Positions 4,862-48,462 of a DNA stretch of 64,000 nucleotides are shown here, in pieces. Position numbers and translations under genes: made by a program. The number at the start of each line of letters is the position of its first letter. Position 1 is the stretch's first letter. Source of the stretch: an uncultured Acidimicrobiaceae bacterium (GTDB lineage: Bacteria > Actinomycetota > Acidimicrobiia > Spongiisociales > UBA5794); assembly GCA_964460075.1 (NCBI GenBank), contig CAYWPC010000006.1, positions 8,711-72,710 on the forward strand, in the 5' to 3' direction. A model generated the notes under the pieces. It was not told where the DNA came from, did no database searches, and saw only the letters and a list, made by a program, of their open reading frames with translations.

Positions 4862-5646
4862 CCGAAACCGAACGTTGTGCCGTTGAGATCTCAGGGCTCT
4901 CGAAAACCTTCAACGCTGGAAAGCCGAACGAGGTGCGTGCTCTCGATGCGATTGATCTCTCGATCACCAACGGGTCTTTCGTCTCCCTCATCGGTCCCTC
5001 TGGCTGCGGGAAATCAACGCTGCTGCGCCTCATCGGCGCATTGACACACCCAAGCAAAGGTGAAGTTCTTGTCAACGGAAAGTCGGCAGACCAAGCGCGC
5101 CTCAACCGTGATTACGGCATGGCATTTCAGACATCCGGTCTGTTCGATTGGCGGACGGTCTCGCAGAATGTTGAATTGCCGCTCCAACTCATGGGATGGG
5201 GGAAGGCCGAGCGCAAGGATCGCGCACTCGAAATGCTCGCTCTTGTGAAACTCACCGAGTTCGCGGACCACTATCCGAGAGAGCTGTCGGGCGGAATGCA
5301 GCAGCGGGTGTCTATCGCCAGGGCGCTCTCGTTCCGTCCGTCTCTCTTGCTCATGGACGAACCGTTCGGCGCCCTCGACGAGATGACTCGCGAGCACATG
5401 CAGACGGAGGTCCTCGACATCTGGAACAAGACGGGCAAGACAGTCGTGTTCGTGACCCACTCCATTCCCGAGGCGGTCTTTCTCTCGCAGCGAGTCATCG
5501 TATTGTCGCCACGTCCTGGAAGAATCGCCGTTGACATTGCGGTCGACCTTGGAGACAGAAACTTCGAGACGAGAGAGTCGCCAGCGTTCTTCGACAGCAT
5601 CACCGTTGTGCGCGAGGCGCTGCGATTCAAGGAACTAGCCAAATGA
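4858..5646 (+). CDS. ABC transporter ATP-binding protein
   Basis: Walker A GPSGCGKST, the ABC signature LSGGMQQRV and Walker B LLLMDEP. It makes an ATGA overlap with the upstream permease. Confidence 0.9.
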   Translation: MTETERCAVEISGLSKTFNAGKPNEVRALDAIDLSITNGSFVSLIGPSGCGKSTLLRLIGALTHPSKGEVLVNGKSADQARLNRDYGMAFQTSGLFDWRTVSQNVELPLQLMGWGKAERKDRALEMLALVKLTEFADHYPRELSGGMQQRVSIARALSFRPSLLLMDEPFGALDEMTREHMQTEVLDIWNKTGKTVVFVTHSIPEAVFLSQRVIVLSPRPGRIAVDIAVDLGDRNFETRESPAFFDSITVVREALRFKELAK

Positions 5647-6422
5647 TCTCGCGTGTGCTCCGGAACTTCGCCCCTGCCATAATCGTCGGCGTGGGTGGGG
5701 TTGTGTTCTGGGAGTTGACGTTGCTGGTACTCAAGCCCGAGGGGTTCTTGCTCCCCGCGCCAAGTTCGATCGGCTCCGCACTCGTCGAGAACGTCGACGA
5801 GATATGGGCAGCAACACAGAACACCGGATATGTAGTCGTGACAGGTCTTGTTGCGGGGGTGATACTGGGTGCGCTCTGGGCGTTGCTCGTATCGCGGTTC
5901 CGACTGGCAGACGAGACACTCACACCCCTGGCGATTGCTCTCAATGCCGTTCCGATCATTGCGCTTGCACCGATCTTCAACGCTTGGTTCGGCTTACTGT
6001 CACCTGTGTCGAACCAAGCCATCGTCGCGATGCTCGTGTTCTTCCCTGTGTTTATCAACACGACAAAAGGTCTCACAGAGGTGGGAGCGACCGAAATCGA
6101 ATTGATGCGATCGTACGCTGCTTCTTCGTGGCAGGTCGCCAGGATCGTTCGGATTCCGAATGCGATGCCATTCTTCTTTACCTCACTGAAGATTGCCTCA
6201 TCTTTGGCCGTGATCGGCGCGATCGTCGCTGAGTACTTCGGCGGTCGACAGGATGCTCTTGGCCCACTCATTGTCCAGAACGCAGGGCTCACACGCTACG
6301 CAGAGGCCTGGGCGGCGGTGCTTGCTGGAAGTGTCATGGGCATTCTGTTGTATTTTGTGAGCGGAGCTTTCGAGCGGGTCTCCATGCCGTGGAAGCCTGA
6401 CTGGGAAAATATGGGGTCATAG
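5643..6422 (+). CDS. ABC transporter permease (second subunit)
   Basis: Multi-TM protein; makes an ATGA overlap with the ATPase gene. Confidence 0.8.
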   Translation: MISRVLRNFAPAIIVGVGGVVFWELTLLVLKPEGFLLPAPSSIGSALVENVDEIWAATQNTGYVVVTGLVAGVILGALWALLVSRFRLADETLTPLAIALNAVPIIALAPIFNAWFGLLSPVSNQAIVAMLVFFPVFINTTKGLTEVGATEIELMRSYAASSWQVARIVRIPNAMPFFFTSLKIASSLAVIGAIVAEYFGGRQDALGPLIVQNAGLTRYAEAWAAVLAGSVMGILLYFVSGAFERVSMPWKPDWENMGS

Positions 6423-6457
6423 GCCCCGTACGTAAGCAAGCAAACGAGAAGGGAGAC

Positions 6458-7594
6458 TTGATGCGGTTGGGTACAAAGAAGGGACTCGCACGCTGGCTTG
6501 TCATATTGGCCGTGTTCGCACTGGTTGCAGCTGCGTGTAGCAGTTCGGATGACAGCGGCGGCGAGGCAGGAAGTCAAGAACTCATTCCGGTGAAGCTGCA
6601 GTTGCAGTGGTTCACCCAGGCCCAATTCGCAGGCTACTTCGCAGCCCTTGATCAGGGCTTCTACAGGGACGCCGGCCTCGACGTCGAGATTCTTGAGGGC
6701 GGCGTCGACATCGTACCTGCAACGGTTCTCGACTCGGGCGCAGCTGACTTCGCGATTTCGTGGGTTCCTCGAGGGCTCGTGCCGCGCGAAGAAGGGTTGA
6801 ACATCACCAACATCGCCCAAGTGTTCCAGCGCTCGGCGACTCTTCAGGTGTCGTTTGCCGATCAGGGCATTGCAGGTCCTAGCGATCTCAAGGGCAAGAC
6901 GGTTGGCAACTGGGGCTTCGGGAACGAGTTCGAGCTTCTGGCGGGACTCCGAGCTTCTGGCCTTGATCCAGCGTCAGACGTCTCGCTCGTTCAGCAGCAG
7001 TTCGACATGCTCGCTCTGATAAGTGGCGACATCGATGCGGCGCAAGCCATGATTTACAACGAGTACGCCCAGGTGCTCGAGACGGTGAACCCTGCCACAG
7101 GTGAGCTATACAAGCCGGAGGACCTTTCGATCATTGACTGGAATGATGTTGGCACAGCAATGCTCCAGGACGCCATTTGGGCTGATGCGGACAAGCTTGA
7201 CTCGGATGCCGAGTACCGAGCGACAGCGGTCAAGTTCGTTGAGGCATCGTTGCGCGGGTGGGCGTATTGTCGTGACCAGTTCGACGAATGCGCTGGGATC
7301 GTTCTCGATGCTGGCCCGACGCTCGGTGAGTCGCATCAGCGTTGGCAGCTCAACGAGATCAACAACCTGATATGGCCTTCACCCGCAGGTGTAGGTGTCA
7401 TGGATCAGGGCCTCTGGGATCAGACGGTGGCGGTCGCGACGTCAGAGCAGATTCTCAAGTCAGCCCCGACAGATGGCGCATTTCGTACCGATATCGTGCA
7501 AGAGGCACTCGCCAACTTGAGGGCCGCAGGGATTGATGTGATAGGCAACGACTGGGAACCAAAGACGATCGACCTGAAAGAAGGCGGCAACTGA
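6458..7594 (+). CDS. ABC substrate-binding lipoprotein (NMT1/THI5/SsuA-like)
   Basis: Signal peptide with the lipobox VAAAC|SSS. The product has the NMT1-like fold sequence QLQWFTQAQFAGYFAA. Confidence 0.8.
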   Translation: MMRLGTKKGLARWLVILAVFALVAAACSSSDDSGGEAGSQELIPVKLQLQWFTQAQFAGYFAALDQGFYRDAGLDVEILEGGVDIVPATVLDSGAADFAISWVPRGLVPREEGLNITNIAQVFQRSATLQVSFADQGIAGPSDLKGKTVGNWGFGNEFELLAGLRASGLDPASDVSLVQQQFDMLALISGDIDAAQAMIYNEYAQVLETVNPATGELYKPEDLSIIDWNDVGTAMLQDAIWADADKLDSDAEYRATAVKFVEASLRGWAYCRDQFDECAGIVLDAGPTLGESHQRWQLNEINNLIWPSPAGVGVMDQGLWDQTVAVATSEQILKSAPTDGAFRTDIVQEALANLRAAGIDVIGNDWEPKTIDLKEGGN

Positions 7595-16670: not shown

Positions 16671-16717
16671 TGCCCGCGAACCCAGGGTTACAGAGCGGCT
16701 ATCCGACGCTGACAGCC
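16671..16717. repeat. Copy A of a ~47-bp repeat (core ACCCAGGGTTACAGAGCGGCTAT...ACGCTG.CAGCCC)
   Basis: About 85% identical to copy B at 17027-17073 (same orientation) and to the reverse complement of copy C at 18053-18100. Confidence 0.75.
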
Positions 16718-16755
16718 CACTGAATGGCTCCGGATCGGCTGTTCATGGGTGGCCG

Positions 16756-16837
16756 TGCGGGCGAGAGGACTCGAACCTCCACTCCGTTAGGAACCAGGTC
16801 CTAAACCTGGCGCGTCTGCCAATTCCGCCACACCCGC
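16756..16837 (-). tRNA. tRNA-Leu (anticodon TAG)
   Basis: Hand-folded. Acceptor stem GCGGGTG/CGCCCGC; anticodon loop TTTAGGA; long variable arm; T-arm GGTTCGAGTCC. 82 nt. Confidence 0.85.
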
Positions 16838-16883
16838 GTGTAGTCGCTGATTCTGGCACACGATGGCGCCCAGAAACGTGAAA

Positions 16884-16903
16884 GCCCCCGATGAACGGGG
16901 GCT
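16884..16903 (-). terminator. GC-rich hairpin (GCCCCCG-ATGAA-CGGGGGC) between tRNA-Lys and tRNA-Leu. Possible terminator or processing site.
   Basis: Perfect 7-bp GC stem, followed on the minus strand by TTTC. Confidence 0.35.
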
Positions 16904-16908
16904 GCCCG

Positions 16909-16982
16909 TGGGTCGCCTGGGACTTGAACCCAGAACCTACGGATTAAGAGTCCGTTGCTCTGCCAAATTGAGCTAGCGACCC
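16909..16982 (-). tRNA. tRNA-Lys (anticodon CTT)
   Basis: Hand-folded. Acceptor stem GGGTCGC/GCGACCC; anticodon loop CTCTTAA; T-arm GGTTCAAGTCC. 74 nt. Confidence 0.85.
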
Positions 16983-17026
16983 GCCGTGCGATGCTAGCAA
17001 CGCATGCTCTTTAGCGGCCGCTGATA

Positions 17027-17073
17027 GCCGGCGAACCCAGGGTTACAGAGCGGCTATATCACGCTGGGGGCCC
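17027..17073. repeat. Copy B of the ~47-bp repeat. Left inverted-repeat arm flanking the AbiEi/DUF559 gene.
   Basis: GCCGGCGAACCCAGGGTTACAGAGCGGCTATATCACGCTGGGGGCCC. It ends 5 nt before the CDS start. Confidence 0.75.
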
Positions 17074-17078
17074 ACACA

Positions 17079-18023
17079 ATGAGCGAGGGCAGCAGAAGTG
17101 TCAGTGCCGAGAGGCAAAGTGTCAATATGCACCCCGACAGGATTGTCAGTCAGATCGCCGCCAAGCAAGGCGGAGCTGTGACCCGTACGCAGGCTCTCGC
17201 CTCTGGTTTGTCTAAGGATCAGATCACCTACCGCGTTCGTACAAGGCGTTGGAGTCGGCTGGCCGACGGTGCCTACCGAGTGCTCGAGATGGATGGCCGG
17301 TTGAATCTTGCTCGGGCAGCAGTAGCGGTGTTGCCTGGGGCTGTCGCATCGCACTTTTCGGCCGCAGCCATCCACGGCATGGACAAAGTCGACACCCGAA
17401 TGGTTTCAGTTCTTGTTCATTCTCAGACGACACACAATTTCCCCGGCGTGCAAGTCTTTCGATGCCACGATCTCGCCGTGGATCACATCGTTGAACTCAA
17501 CGGGCTGGTAACCACAACGCCAGCTCGGACTGTCGTTGATCTTGCAGCGACCTTGCGCCCGAAGCGCCTCGGCTTCGTTATTGACGATGCTGTTGCAGCT
17601 CAGCGAACCACGCTCCGCCAGATAGAGGTCGTCCTCGATGCGGTTGCGCGCCGCGGGAAGCCGGGAGTGCGTGCGTTGCGGGCGGTGCTCGATCTGAGGC
17701 AAGGGGAAGATCGACCAGCGTCCGTCCTGGAGAAAGCCGGTAACAGACTGCTCAGGGAGGATGGAATTCGAGGCTTCGTCACCGAGTTCCCCCTACCGTG
17801 GTCGCCTCGCAGGCGCTTTGATGTTGCGTTTCCAGATCGTTGTCTTGCTATCGAGTGGGATTCTCGTCGCTGGCATACGCAAGCTGAAGCGTTCGAGCGC
17901 GATCGGTATCGGGACCGAGAGGCCGTCGTCCACGGGTGGCGAGTACTGCGATTCACCTGGGACGATGTTCAGACGCGACCTGAACACGTTCTCGAAACGC
18001 TGTGGGCCGTTCTCGCGTCGTAG
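17079..18023 (+). CDS. AbiEi_4-like N-terminal domain / DUF559 (Vsr-like endonuclease fold) C-terminal domain protein
   Basis: N-terminus: IAAKQGGAVTRTQALASGLSKDQITYRVRTRRW. C-terminus: RFDVAFPDRCLAIEWDSRRWH...RDRYRDREAVVHGWRVLRF. Confidence 0.7.
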   Translation: MSEGSRSVSAERQSVNMHPDRIVSQIAAKQGGAVTRTQALASGLSKDQITYRVRTRRWSRLADGAYRVLEMDGRLNLARAAVAVLPGAVASHFSAAAIHGMDKVDTRMVSVLVHSQTTHNFPGVQVFRCHDLAVDHIVELNGLVTTTPARTVVDLAATLRPKRLGFVIDDAVAAQRTTLRQIEVVLDAVARRGKPGVRALRAVLDLRQGEDRPASVLEKAGNRLLREDGIRGFVTEFPLPWSPRRRFDVAFPDRCLAIEWDSRRWHTQAEAFERDRYRDREAVVHGWRVLRFTWDDVQTRPEHVLETLWAVLAS

Positions 18024-18052
18024 GTCGTTCGCCTTCGTCCTGTTCGTTCGGT

Positions 18053-18100
18053 GGGCTGACAGCGTGATATGGCCGTTCTGTAACCCTGGGTATGAGTTCG
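18053..18100. repeat. Copy C of the ~47-bp repeat, in inverted orientation. Right arm.
   Basis: Its reverse complement, CGAACTCATACCCAGGGTTACAGAACGGCCATATCACGCTGTCAGCCC, matches copies A and B. Confidence 0.75.
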
Positions 18101-18156: not shown

Positions 18157-18230
18157 CGGGCTGTGGCGCAGCTTGGAAGCGCACCTGCTTTGGGAGCAGG
18201 GGGTCGTCAGTTCAAATCTGACCAGCCCGA
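18157..18230 (+). tRNA. tRNA-Pro (anticodon TGG)
   Basis: Hand-folded. Acceptor stem CGGGCTG/CAGCCCG; anticodon loop TTTGGGA; T-arm AGTTCAAATCTGAC. 74 nt. Confidence 0.85.
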
Positions 18231-18240
18231 CTACGAACAG

Positions 18241-46531: not shown

Positions 46532-46556
46532 CGGGAGAGAGAAACGCTGGAACCCT
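46496..46556 (+). repeat. attL-like direct repeat (3' half of tRNA-Ala plus ~25 nt)
   Basis: GTCAAGGGGTCAGGGGTTCGAATCCCCTCAGCTCCACGGGAGAGAGAAACGCTGGAACC recurs at 49371-49430 with about 5 mismatches. Confidence 0.8.
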
Positions 46557-46558
46557 AG

Positions 46559-47460
46559 CCATGGCTGGGGTTTCGGCGCGTCTGGAGGTGATTCGTCGGG
46601 TCGTTCTCAAGGTCGTGTTCGGGTCGAGAGTCCGCGAGGAGTCCGCGGGTCCGCTGGAAGTCTGTGTCGAGGAGGTGGGGAGAGATCGCGCGTCAGGGTG
46701 AGGCGCCGATCGGATCGAGACTCGTCGTAAGGATCCGGCGTTCCAGACCAGGATCCGGTCGATCATCGAACAGAACCAGCGGGTGCTCGAGCGGCTCGCT
46801 GAGTGAGCGTCGCGTACCTCGACCTCGCCGACTTCCCTGTGACCGTCGAGTCCGGAGCGAGACCCGGTACCCAGGGTTCGATTGCACGTGTACGTGCAAT
46901 GTGGCCCACAGATCGGTGCTGCGGGTTGGCGGGTGGTGTTGGTGTACCGGTAGCGTGGCGTTCTTGTCGGGTGCAAGTCTCCATCCGCTGAACGCCCATT
47001 GAAGAACCGTCGTAGTGCTTCGGCCTCTCTCGATGGTGCTTTGGTTGCGCCAACCCCGAAGTGCAGTCACTCGATTCGCGCCGTATCCATTGGATAGGCG
47101 GTCTCCGTTGCACTCCACGCCCATGGGCGTTGTCAAGCCACACGATCGTCTTGCCGCGAGTAACTGGTTGGACGAGGACGCTCACATCGCTCTTACCAAG
47201 ATCGGACGAAGGCTTCGCCCGTCACCACCACTTATCGGTTCAGTCAATCGGCGAGCAAGGCGCGATTGCCGTGGATGCGGCTTCGTGGCTGTCGTCACAC
47301 GATGGCGTCGATAACACTCCAGCATGGAGTCGGTATAGCGACGGTGTCTGAGCGGCTGGGACACGCCGACCTGAACATCACGGTGAAGATCTATCTGAAC
47401 GGATCAGGGGAATCAGATCGCTCCGCCACAGAAACACACGATGCGGCACTCCACAGGTGA
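46559..47460 (+). pseudogene. Tyrosine recombinase (phage-type integrase) remnant, frameshifted
   Basis: Box-II-like LRHTMASITLQHGVGIATVSERLGHADLNITVKIY in one frame at 47266-47460. A box-I-like RLRPSPPLIG lies in another frame. No single intact ORF. The 5' limit is uncertain. Confidence 0.55.
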
Positions 47461-47586
47461 CGGCCGGACGCCTCCCACGGAGGAAACGAAGGGCCAGATC
47501 TATGGGTCGATACGGGCAGGTAGAACCCACTTGGGACTCTTTTAGATTGATGCGGGTGAACGAGAATCACCCGGGATTGATTGTGT

Positions 47587-47721
47587 TCAGTGACCGAACG
47601 TGTTGTCGAGAGACTGGTTGGTGTGCGACGCCTTCTTGGCCTTCTTGGCAAGACGTTTTTCCTTGAGGGTCTTCTCAGCAACCTTCCTTGAACCCTTGCC
47701 ACCCTTGTCCTTGTTCGCCAT
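47587..47721 (-). CDS. Unannotated 44-aa Lys-rich basic protein (MANKDKGGKGSRKVAEKTLKEKRLAKKAKKASHTNQSLDNTFGH)
   Basis: Not in the ORF track (below 60 aa). A strong RBS AGGAGG sits 6 nt before the ATG. Inside the integrated element. Confidence 0.5.
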   Translation of the reverse strand: MANKDKGGKGSRKVAEKTLKEKRLAKKAKKASHTNQSLDNTFGH

Positions 47722-47978
47722 CGGAGCCTCCTGACTGATGACCGGAGTGGTAACCATGGAACCAGTGTCTCACATCACGACAAACCGCGGAGCGAACGCG
47801 TCCCTAACAAGCCCAAACATATGCGTTGTTATGGGTGGGTGTGGACGATATAGATCTGGAGGATGGCGCACGGTGGGGTGGGCGTTACCAGAGTGCAGTA
47901 CGCTGCGAGTGGTGAAACGGGAACATCTAGGTATTGGAGTCTGGCGTGGAAGCTGATCGGGAGAGAGCAGAACGCCAT

Positions 47979-48119
47979 GAGCGGGAGCGTAAGGAAGAAC
48001 ACGAGCGCAGTGAGCAGAGACGTAAGGAAGATCGTGAGCGGGCTGACCAAAGGCGTAAGGAAGAGCGTGAGCGGGCTGACCGTAGGCGTAAGGAAGAGCG
48101 TGAGCGGGAGGGTCATGGT
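47979..48119. repeat. Tandem repeat, 4 x 33 bp (unit ..CGTAAGGAAGAGCGTGAGCGGGCTGACC..)
   Basis: The CGTAAGGAAG phase recurs at 47988, 48021, 48054 and 48087. The period of 33 nt is frame-preserving. The plus frame encodes an RRKEERERAD-type charged repeat. Confidence 0.8.
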
Positions 48120-48206
48120 CGGAGCGGGAGTTAGCTTCGGCTGATCGGTTCCTCACTTCGGCGGGGGGCGCTTCTTGTTTGGCGACATGTACTTGGAGGA
48201 TTCCTG

Positions 48207-48347
48207 ATGAAGTCCAAGCCGATTATCGATGGTGGAAGGCAGCGGTGCGTGGATTGTGGCCACCCTCGCAGGGAGCACAGTGATAATCACAGGTGCACAG
48301 TGCCGAAGTGTGAGTGTCTCGAATACCAATTGCCAGAGGCGAACTGA
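48207..48347 (+). CDS. Unannotated 46-aa zinc-ribbon protein (CxxC...CxxxxCxC)
   Basis: MKSKPIIDGGRQRCVDCGHPRREHSDNHRCTVPKCECLEYQLPEAN. A GGAGGA RBS lies 7 nt upstream. Below the ORF-track size cut-off. Confidence 0.5.
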   Translation: MKSKPIIDGGRQRCVDCGHPRREHSDNHRCTVPKCECLEYQLPEAN

Positions 48348-48462
48348 ACTCTGGACCTGGCTCGCTGAGGCCAGTCTTAACCGGTGACCGGTGTGGTTCG
48401 CCCGGCTTGGCCTGGTCGCTCATAGGTGTCGTTATGGGCGAGCTCCGCAAGAAGGCTTGCTA

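What the first reader, a model, noticed from the sequence alone, without database searches (positions are those of the whole stretch)
16671..18100. Three copies of a ~47-bp repeat; two form inverted repeats tightly flanking an AbiEi_4/DUF559 gene, in a tRNA hotspot
Copy B (17027-17073) ends 5 nt before the 314-aa AbiEi_4/DUF559 CDS. Copy C (18053-18100) starts 29 nt after its stop, in inverted orientation. This is a TIR-gene-TIR layout, like a minimal mobile cassette or homing-endonuclease-like unit. A solo copy A (16671-16717) lies right after rdgB. The tRNA-Leu and tRNA-Lys genes sit between A and B, and tRNA-Pro follows C. DUF559 proteins have a Vsr-like nuclease fold and are multicopy in actinobacteria. 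TIR-bounded copies next to tRNAs have, to my knowledge, not been described as mobile units. The repeat could instead be a recognition or target site.
Basis: partly seen in the sequence, partly recalled or inferred. Interest (0 to 1): 0.65.

Follow-up and report, generated by a model that had tools for sequence, protein, structure and literature searches.

The report
Nuclease gene bracketed by palindromic repeats
A DNA-binding nuclease gene sits between two inverted copies of a hairpin-forming repeat, and the same layout recurs in its relatives across Actinobacteria, so the protein probably acts on its own flanking repeats, much as REP-associated transposases do, but with a different enzyme.

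Summary
Three copies of a ~55-nt repeat lie at 16675-16732 (+), 17030-17087 (+) and 18039-18096 (-). The last two bracket a 298-aa gene whose true start is 17127. The protein is an AbiEi-like DNA-binding module fused to a Vsr/DUF559-type nuclease.

The layout is a family trait and has nothing to do with tRNAs. In 54 of 73 testable homologous loci from Acidimicrobiia, the gene is flanked by the same kind of unit in inverted orientation. The unit has a conserved head (GCGWACCCWGGGTT), a variable hairpin supported by covariation, and a conserved tail (AGCCCRCRGAA).

A 26%-identical homologue in Tsukamurella, and another in Gordonia, are flanked by unrelated palindromes. Tsukamurella also has solo copies elsewhere in the genome.

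Paralogues occupy about five fixed syntenic sites, evolve under purifying selection (dN/dS about 0.1), have no target-site duplications, and show no recent copies. They are therefore not currently mobile. Units within one locus are homogenised, the cassette has flipped several times, and empty sites lack both gene and units.

Best reading: a REPtron-like resident system in which the nuclease acts on its own palindromes. I found no prior description.

The parts
16675..16732 (+). Unit A. A third, distal copy of the palindromic unit, direct with respect to B. Together with B it encloses tRNA-Leu and tRNA-Lys.
   Evidence: CM R1 44.1 bits, E 2.7e-07. 84% identical to B over 55 nt. Equivalent distal units occur in L007, L017 and in synteny groups A, B and C.
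16755..16982 (-). tRNA-Leu(tag) and tRNA-Lys(ctt). An ordinary segment enclosed by the direct units A and B.
   Evidence: ARAGORN, Rfam tRNA. The same tRNAs flank the cassette in L002-L008, L017, L021, L041, L046 and L047.
17030..17087 (+). Unit B, the left arm of the cassette. Outer head GGCGAACCCAGGGTT, imperfect hairpin GGGTT..GCCC, tail ACACAATGA.
   Evidence: CM 43.5 bits. Inverted repeat with C, 48 nt, 83%. Hairpin covariation across 101 arms.
17098..17124 (+). Short region between the left arm and the start codon, with two GTGTCA copies (17098-17103 and 17119-17124). Candidate promoter or operator.
   Evidence: Read from the sequence. A CTGTCAC/TGTCA..TGACA motif recurs at this place in many homologous loci. 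The function is inferred only.
17127..18023 (+). 298-aa gene: an AbiEi-like module (wHTH plus AbiEi C-domain, residues ~1-176) fused to a Vsr/DUF559/MTES_1575 nuclease domain (residues ~215-298).
18039..18096 (-). Unit C, the right arm of the cassette, inverted with respect to B.
   Evidence: CM 39.9 bits. Inverted repeats I1 and I2.
18157..18231 (+). tRNA-Pro(tgg), the flanking gene transcribed away from the cassette. It marks the conserved insertion site.
   Evidence: The empty Lys|Pro spacer of about 130 nt in L099 is shown.
46864..46921 (+). Solo unit of the same class with a different, near-perfect hairpin (ATTGCACGTGTACGTGCAAT). No family gene lies nearby.
   Evidence: Best CM hit in the window, 44.9 bits, and not in the training set. 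tblastn finds no paralogue in the window. Overlapping ORFs have no Pfam hit.

Best explanation
The locus is one member of a widespread, vertically inherited class of actinobacterial cassettes. A single gene encodes an AbiEi-type DNA-binding module fused to a Vsr-like endonuclease. It is bracketed by two inverted copies of a cognate REP-like palindromic unit, and further cognate copies often lie nearby.

Proposed mechanism (inferred):
- The DNA-binding module recognises the conserved, partly palindromic head of the unit (GCGWACCCWGGGTT).
- The nuclease nicks or cuts at the extruded hairpin or cruciform.
- Repair from another unit of the same locus homogenises the units by gene conversion.
- Crossovers between inverted units flip the cassette.
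- Exchange between direct units deletes or duplicates intervening segments and makes tandem arrays.

What is shown: the architecture, its conservation, the hairpin covariation, concerted evolution, flips, indels, purifying selection, and the absence of recent mobility.

What is inferred: that the protein binds and cuts the units.
For: Architecture conserved:
- An inverted unit pair flanks the gene in 54 of 73 testable loci. The left arm ends a median 42 nt before the start codon, and the right arm starts a median 2.5 nt after the stop.
- CCCNGGG and GCCC are invariant in 101 arms.

Hairpin:
- 74.6% of cells are paired, against 33-48% when partners are slid. The covariation score is 0.323, against at most 0.155 for slid partners, and 0 of 500 shuffles reach it.

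Same layout with unrelated palindromes:
- Tsukamurella (41-nt units, 93% complementary, 952 nt apart), with solo copies elsewhere in the genome.
- Gordonia and one unnamed ENA metagenome MAG (L184).

Cognate units within a locus:
- Variable-core identity between arms of one locus is 76.7%, against 57-66% between loci.
- Distal units 0.25-2.4 kb away share the locus-specific hairpin, and the distal unit of L014 combines left-arm-like and right-arm-like stretches.

Rearrangements at units:
- Cassette flips in synteny groups T (4:4), A (L035) and D (L069).
- A HerA-like gene between direct units is present or absent among species.
- Tandem arrays of units.

Protein is functional:
- dN/dS 0.07-0.25.
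- Invariant D232, E243, D245, H250 and others.
- Vsr/I-Bth0305I fold plus a full AbiEi-like module.

Empty sites lack both gene and units.
Against: - There is no biochemical evidence that the protein touches the units.
- Unit copy number is low: one solo in about 62 kb of the window.
- Homogenisation could come from ordinary recombination.
- A second conserved motif (CTGTCAC) between the arm and the start codon could be the real AbiEi-type operator, leaving the arms without a demonstrated ligand.
- Some homologues (T. soli, the Pseudonocardiaceae MAG, and 8 Acidimicrobiia loci) have one unit or none that I could detect.
Confidence: 0.5

Rival explanations
1. Regulatory and insulating elements only. 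The units are stable hairpins that act as bidirectional terminators or mRNA-end stabilisers, and perhaps as auxiliary operators for AbiEi-like autoregulation. The nuclease works on something else, such as defence or repair. Similarity between units is kept by ordinary recombination and by shared constraint.
For: - The hairpins are strong in several lineages, -26 to -45 kcal/mol.
- The right arm sits at the stop codon.
- In Tsukamurella, one solo unit (L179) lies in the short gap between convergent genes and another (L180) between divergent genes.
- AbiEi proteins are known autorepressors that bind inverted repeats (my own knowledge of Hampton et al. 2018, not read here).
- A separate conserved motif lies next to the start codon.
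Against: - Invariant bases lie outside the stem (CCC of CCCNGGG, plus the head and tail).
- The asymmetric units are consistently in inverted orientation.
- Tandem arrays of up to 4 units occur.
- Distal units kilobases away are homogenised.
- The layout recurs with unrelated palindromes next to the same gene family in distant orders.
- There is no T-run, and the window copies do not fold better than shuffled sequence.
Confidence: 0.25
2. An active mobile element. A minimal TIR transposon or homing cassette copies itself into new sites, with a preference for tRNA regions.
For: - The TIR-gene-TIR layout is present.
- The nuclease fold is homing-endonuclease-like.
- Empty sites exist.
- Paralogues at about five loci all carry arms.
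Against: - No target-site duplications: 1 of 59 loci has a repeat of 4 nt or more, which is below the control rate.
- Same-genome paralogues are only 39-67% identical, and protein similarity follows synteny.
- Identical proteins always appear in the same context and orientation across samples.
- No relatives in viral contigs.
- Most loci have no tRNA within 4 kb.
- Strong purifying selection.
Confidence: 0.12
3. A programmed inversion switch. The inverted repeats are recombination sites for frequent flipping that changes expression of the gene or of its neighbours.
For: - Both orientations occur among species at the same locus.
- 'DUF559 domain-containing protein' is enriched (odds ratio 14) among predicted programmed-inversion targets in PMC9881135.
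Against: - No tyrosine or serine recombinase was found in or next to the cassette.
- The start-proximal region flips together with the gene, so a flip gives no obvious on/off change.
- Of the contigs carrying protein P0094, all 10 examined, and the contigs for three other proteins, show a single orientation.
Confidence: 0.08

Closest known systems
REPtrons: RAYT/TnpA_REP genes flanked by inverted REP sequences, with REPINs dispersed in the genome (PMC3733652, PMC8266576, PMC3337134, bioRxiv 10.1101/2022.05.22.493013)
   Same: - A single gene is bracketed by inverted copies of a short palindromic unit.
- The unit has a conserved unpaired head and a variable, structure-conserved stem.
- The units are cognate to the gene.
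- Solo and tandem units occur elsewhere.
- The gene is vertically inherited at fixed loci, with no classical transposition signs.
   Different: - The enzyme is an AbiEi-like wHTH fused to a Vsr-like PD-(D/E)xK nuclease, not an HUH Y1 transposase.
- There is no GTAG or CGTC head.
- Copy number appears low.
- There are several paralogous cassettes per genome.
- The host phylum is Actinomycetota.
Free-standing or intron-borne homing endonucleases of the Vsr-like EDxHD family (I-Bth0305I, PDB 3R3P; PMC3239194)
   Same: - The gene sits in an intergenic spacer that is empty in some relatives.
   Different: - The I-Bth0305I family is not described with flanking inverted palindromes.
- Here the phylogeny follows synteny.
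- No recent spread is seen.
- The DNA-binding module is AbiEi-like.
AbiEi antitoxin of type IV AbiE toxin-antitoxin systems (PDB 6Y8Q; Rv2827c, PDB 1ZEL)
   Different: There is no AbiEii nucleotidyltransferase partner. The module is fused to a nuclease instead, and the repeats flank the whole gene.
Vsr very-short-patch repair endonuclease (PDB 1CW0) and DUF559 proteins (NGO0050, PDB 3HRL)
   Same: - The invariant CCCNGGG of the unit contains a CCNGG/CCWGG-type site, like Vsr substrates. This is a lead only.
   Different: There is no adjacent C5 DNA methyltransferase. The neighbouring methyltransferase is a TPMT/TehB-like class I enzyme. The extra AbiEi module and the flanking repeats are also absent from Vsr.
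Integron attC sites
   Same: They are imperfect palindromes with conserved ends and a variable centre, next to gene-sized segments that come and go.
   Different: There is no IntI recombinase. The units are inverted around the core gene rather than forming uniform direct arrays.

Membership tests
REPtron (RAYT + REP) | Gene encodes an HUH Y1 transposase (TnpA_REP/RAYT) | tested here: not met
   [not shown]
REPtron (RAYT + REP) | Gene flanked by palindromic repeat units in inverted orientation | tested here: met
   (54 of 73 loci).
REPtron (RAYT + REP) | Units carry a GTAG (or CGTC) head | tested here: not met
   The head consensus is CGCGWACCCWGGG. In Tsukamurella it is TGCGGTGGAT.
REPtron (RAYT + REP) | Units dispersed at high copy number through the genome | tested here: inconclusive
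   One solo unit in about 62 kb of the window. About 20 distal units within 4 kb of cassettes. 5 places in about 0.93 Mb of Tsukamurella at low sensitivity. No complete genome could be scanned.
Homing endonuclease gene (Vsr-like EDxHD family) | Vsr-like/EDxHD catalytic domain | tested here: met
   [not shown]
Homing endonuclease gene (Vsr-like EDxHD family) | Patchy presence/absence among close relatives, with signs of recent horizontal spread | tested here: not met
   Empty sites occur only in relatives whose RdgB is 61-63% identical. Protein similarity follows synteny in 49 of 55 cases.
Homing endonuclease gene (Vsr-like EDxHD family) | Enzyme cleaves the uninterrupted (empty) allele | not testable with these tools
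   Needs a cleavage assay on the L099-type spacer.
Classical TIR insertion sequence | Target-site duplications flanking the TIRs | tested here: not met
   50 of 59 loci have none and the longest is 4 nt, no more than the permuted control.
Classical TIR insertion sequence | Multiple near-identical copies per genome | tested here: not met
   16 same-genome pairs are 39-67% identical.
Programmed inversion (inverton) | Dedicated site-specific recombinase at the locus | tested here: not met
   The neighbours are RNase PH, RdgB, tRNAs, a methyltransferase and trigger factor.
Programmed inversion (inverton) | Both orientations coexist within one population | tested here: not met
   All contigs examined that carry identical proteins share one orientation. 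Assemblies show only the majority form, so this is a weak test.
AbiE type IV toxin-antitoxin system | AbiEi-like antitoxin module | tested here: met
   [not shown]
AbiE type IV toxin-antitoxin system | Adjacent AbiEii nucleotidyltransferase toxin gene | tested here: not met
   There is only one gene between the arms, and the flanks are tRNAs.
Vsr mismatch-repair endonuclease | Paired with a C5 cytosine DNA methyltransferase | tested here: not met
   The adjacent methyltransferase matches Methyltransf_25/11 and TPMT/TehB, not a DNA C5 methylase. The rest of the genome was not available.

The most novel reading that the evidence does not exclude
AbiEi-Vsr fusion proteins are a second, non-HUH class of enzymes that create, maintain and homogenise their own REP-like palindromes. 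This would make them an actinobacterial counterpart of the RAYT/REPIN partnership. A structure- and sequence-specific PD-(D/E)xK nuclease would drive gene conversion, inversion and local copy-number change at its cognate hairpins. It would give a mechanism for the origin of palindromic repeats in a phylum where no REP-associated enzyme is known to me.
Probability: 0.35. Interest if true: 0.85.

Novelty: new variant of a known kind. Interest (0 to 1): 0.74.

Why it matters
The family is large. At 50% identity it forms 3,246 clusters at E<=1e-30 and 16,506 at E<=1e-10. Its members are annotated only as 'DUF559' or 'AbiEi antitoxin domain' proteins.

A conserved link between these genes and cognate palindromes gives the family its first testable function. 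It offers a candidate enzyme for REP-like repeats in Actinomycetota. It may also explain why DUF559 genes stood out among predicted inversion targets in an earlier survey (PMC9881135).

There is a practical point as well. The inverted arms break short-k assemblies into ~1-kb contigs and can mislead inversion or mobile-element callers.

Tried and rejected
- **Rfam scan of 15-21 kb:** only tRNAs were found.
- **RNA folding of the three copies on both strands:** z-scores ran from -1.1 to +0.8. The window copies are weak hairpins on their own, and the structure became clear only from 101 arms.
- **Sigma-70 promoter scan:** none found. The idea that the arms are tRNA promoters was rejected because most loci have no tRNA.
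- **Exact 21-base pattern in GTDB genomes:** 0 hits, so the species is not represented there.
- **Exact look-up of the 314-aa ORF:** it failed because the real start codon is downstream.
- **Viral contigs:** no relatives.
- **Target-site duplications:** none.
- **Population-level inversion among contigs carrying identical proteins:** none seen.
- **att-site or integrase explanation:** no integrase is present, and the repeats do not overlap tRNA 3' ends.
- **Literature:** searches on DUF559, MTES_1575, I-Bth0305I, REP plus very short patch, and Vsr plus TIR found no description of this arrangement. The library covers open-access papers only.

Full report
**1. Observation**

The repeat is real. 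The repeat finder gives a direct pair, 16672-16726 and 17027-17081 (84%). It also gives inverted pairs, 17035-17082 with 18044-18091 (48 nt, 83%) and 16680-16724 with 18047-18091. The 23-nt core matches three times in 64 kb and never in 100 shuffles.

tRNA-Leu(tag) and tRNA-Lys(ctt) on the minus strand lie between A and B. tRNA-Pro(tgg) follows C. RdgB/Ham1 ends just before A.

The gene carries weak AbiEi_4, DUF559 and MTES_1575 Pfam hits. The database copy (P0001, 100% identical) and its relatives are 298-300 aa long, so the start codon is ATG 17127, not 17079.

**2. The layout is a property of the gene family, not of the tRNA site**

Orthologues at 61-64% identity (L002, L003, L004) sit in the same tRNA-Lys/tRNA-Pro spacer. 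They are flanked by 54-63-nt inverted repeats that are 87-91% complementary and 948-960 nt apart.

I surveyed 80 homologous loci from GTDB genomes, nearly all Acidimicrobiia MAGs at 42-80% identity.
- A local alignment of upstream against reverse-complemented downstream flanks found strong inverted repeats at a stereotyped position in most loci.
- With an HMM of the unit, 54 of 73 loci with enough flank have a (+) unit upstream and a (-) unit downstream. Three have units on both sides in another orientation, 8 have a unit on one side, and 8 have none.
- At least four of the 8 'none' loci (L064, L067, L074, L082) still have divergent inverted repeats.
- Only about 12 loci are at the tRNA site. 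The others have no tRNA within 4 kb.

**3. Anatomy of the unit**

Reading from the outside inwards, the unit has three parts:
- a head, CGCGWACCCWGGGTT, in which AACCCWGGGTT is palindromic;
- a variable 20-28-nt segment that is usually an imperfect or perfect palindrome;
- a tail, AGCCCRCRGAA.

CCCNGGG and GCCC are invariant in 101 arms. GGGYT pairs with AGCCC and extends the variable stem.

On a MAFFT alignment of 101 arms, 74.6% of cells in the proposed 14-pair hairpin are paired. Slid partners give 33-48%. The covariation score is 0.323, against at most 0.155 for slid partners, and 0 of 500 shuffles reach it. The centre of the hairpin is AT-enriched (0.57 against 0.45 for the whole core).

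A covariance model finds only four units in the window: A, B, C and a solo unit at 46864-46921 with a different, near-perfect hairpin. There is no paralogue gene anywhere in the window.

**4. Evolutionary behaviour**

*Fixed sites.* Flanking genes define about five synteny groups:
- T, the tRNA site;
- A, next to a HerA-like ATPase;
- B, next to a hydroxyacyl-CoA dehydrogenase;
- C, next to macro/MurI genes;
- D.

The nearest protein neighbour belongs to the same synteny group in 49 of 55 cases. Paralogues from one genome are 39-67% identical. dN/dS is 0.07-0.25. These are old, vertically inherited, functional paralogues.

*No sign of current mobility.* There are no target-site duplications and no relatives in viral contigs.

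*Empty sites.* More distant lineages keep the same tRNA cluster with an empty spacer of about 130-144 nt and no unit (L099, L101). Gene and units therefore come and go together.

*Flips.* The cassette is flipped relative to its flanks in some species. In group T the split is 4:4 by the RdgB marker. L035 is flipped in group A and L069 in group D. In L035 the flank sequences just outside the arms are swapped relative to L032, which points to an inversion between the arms.

*No flipping seen within populations.* Contigs from many samples that encode an identical protein all share one orientation.

*Homogenised units.* Units of one locus resemble each other more than they resemble units at the orthologous position in other species:
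- Variable-core identity is 76.7% within a locus and 57-66% between loci.
- Distal units 0.25-2.4 kb away share the locus-specific hairpin. They are more often closest to the far, inverted arm (13 cases against 7). The distal unit of L014 combines left-arm-like and right-arm-like stretches.

*Other rearrangements.* Segments between direct units vary. The HerA-like gene is present in some group A species and absent in others. Tandem arrays of 2-4 units occur. In six loci the hairpin core of one arm is the reverse complement of the other.

**5. The protein**

PADLOC AbiEi models match residues 7-176 at E 2.5e-24. No AbiEii partner gene, C5 DNA methylase or recombinase is adjacent. Acidic and histidine residues in the nuclease domain are invariant among 31 homologues.

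**6. Generality**

A 26%-identical DUF559 gene in Tsukamurella tyrosinosolvens is flanked by unrelated 41-nt palindromes of the form TGCGGTGGAT..ATCCACCGCA. They are 93% complementary and 952 nt apart. Solo copies lie between ordinary genes elsewhere in that genome.

Other relatives of the Tsukamurella protein gave mixed results:
- A Gordonia MAG (L182) has 68-nt inverted arms flanking the gene, and the right arm contains a strong palindrome.
- An unnamed ENA metagenome MAG (L184) has a strong palindrome downstream and a partial copy upstream.
- T. soli has only a downstream palindrome.
- A Pseudonocardiaceae MAG has only marginal repeats.

A profile of the family finds 3,246 clusters (at 50% identity) at E<=1e-30.

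**7. Interpretation**

The closest known organisation is the REPtron, a RAYT gene flanked by inverted REPs. The enzyme here is unrelated to RAYTs, so this is a functional analogue and not a member.

The most economical mechanism has four steps: the AbiEi-like module reads the conserved head; the Vsr-like nuclease cuts the hairpin or cruciform; repair between units homogenises them; and that repair occasionally inverts, deletes or duplicates DNA. All of these steps are inferred.

The main rival is that the units are terminator or operator hairpins with no enzymatic link to the protein. A conserved CTGTCAC motif between the arm and the start codon keeps that rival alive.

An active transposon or homing element, a phase-variation switch, and tRNA promoters are each disfavoured by specific tests described above.

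**8. Prior knowledge**

Full-text searches found no description of this arrangement. The only hint is a table entry in PMC9881135, where DUF559 proteins are enriched among predicted programmed-inversion targets without further comment. The search covers open-access literature only.

Noticed in passing
window 46864-46921 (+): A solo unit of the same class with a different, near-perfect hairpin. It is the best CM hit in the window. It lies about 330 nt downstream of tRNA-Ala(ggc), inside a ~1.8-kb stretch (46533-48390) where the ORFs tested had no Pfam hit.
   Followed up: partly
window 17098-17124; the same position in many loci: A conserved CTGTCAC / TGTCA..TGACA motif lies between the left arm and the start codon. 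In the window it appears as two GTGTCA copies. It may be the promoter or an AbiEi-type operator. CTGTCA also occurs inside many arms next to the invariant GCCC.
   Followed up: partly
L011, L015, L018, L029, L031, L032, L038, L040 (about 4970-7400), compared with L020, L025, L036, L037: A ~780-aa HerA-like P-loop ATPase gene lies between the right arm and a further direct unit in some species and is missing in others. Of the four species that lack it, L020 and L025 carry tandem units on that side. This looks like gain or loss of a gene between direct units.
   Followed up: partly
L104 5215-5985: In another lineage the same tRNA-Lys/tRNA-Pro spacer holds an unrelated ~0.8-kb insert. Its ORFs have no Pfam hit and it has no inverted repeats. 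The spacer may be a general landing site.
   Followed up: partly
L041, L039, L045, L054, L042, L052 (arms): The variable hairpin core of one arm is the reverse complement of the other arm's core, while the head and tail stay inverted as usual. The palindrome centre appears to have flipped on its own.
   Followed up: no
L011 3717-3953; L020, L024, L025, L037, L073: Tandem arrays of 2-4 units with a ~60-nt period sit on one or both sides of the gene.
   Followed up: no
Homologue table; L005: Many homologues are known only from contigs of about 1.0-1.05 kb, which is exactly arm-gene-arm (L005 starts and ends inside the arms). The inverted arms break short-k assemblies.
   Followed up: partly
L030, L049, L084: In these loci the flanking units are not in the usual inverted orientation. 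In L030 and L084 they are direct. In L049 the unit has become a fully symmetric palindrome that scores on both strands.
   Followed up: no
NZ_LR134451.1, NZ_LR134454.1, NZ_LR134464.1 (L178-L180): The Tsukamurella tyrosinosolvens NCTC13231 'plasmids' 9, 12 and 22 carry housekeeping genes (nrdF, pntB, TrmH-family). They look like chromosome pieces labelled as plasmids.
   Followed up: no
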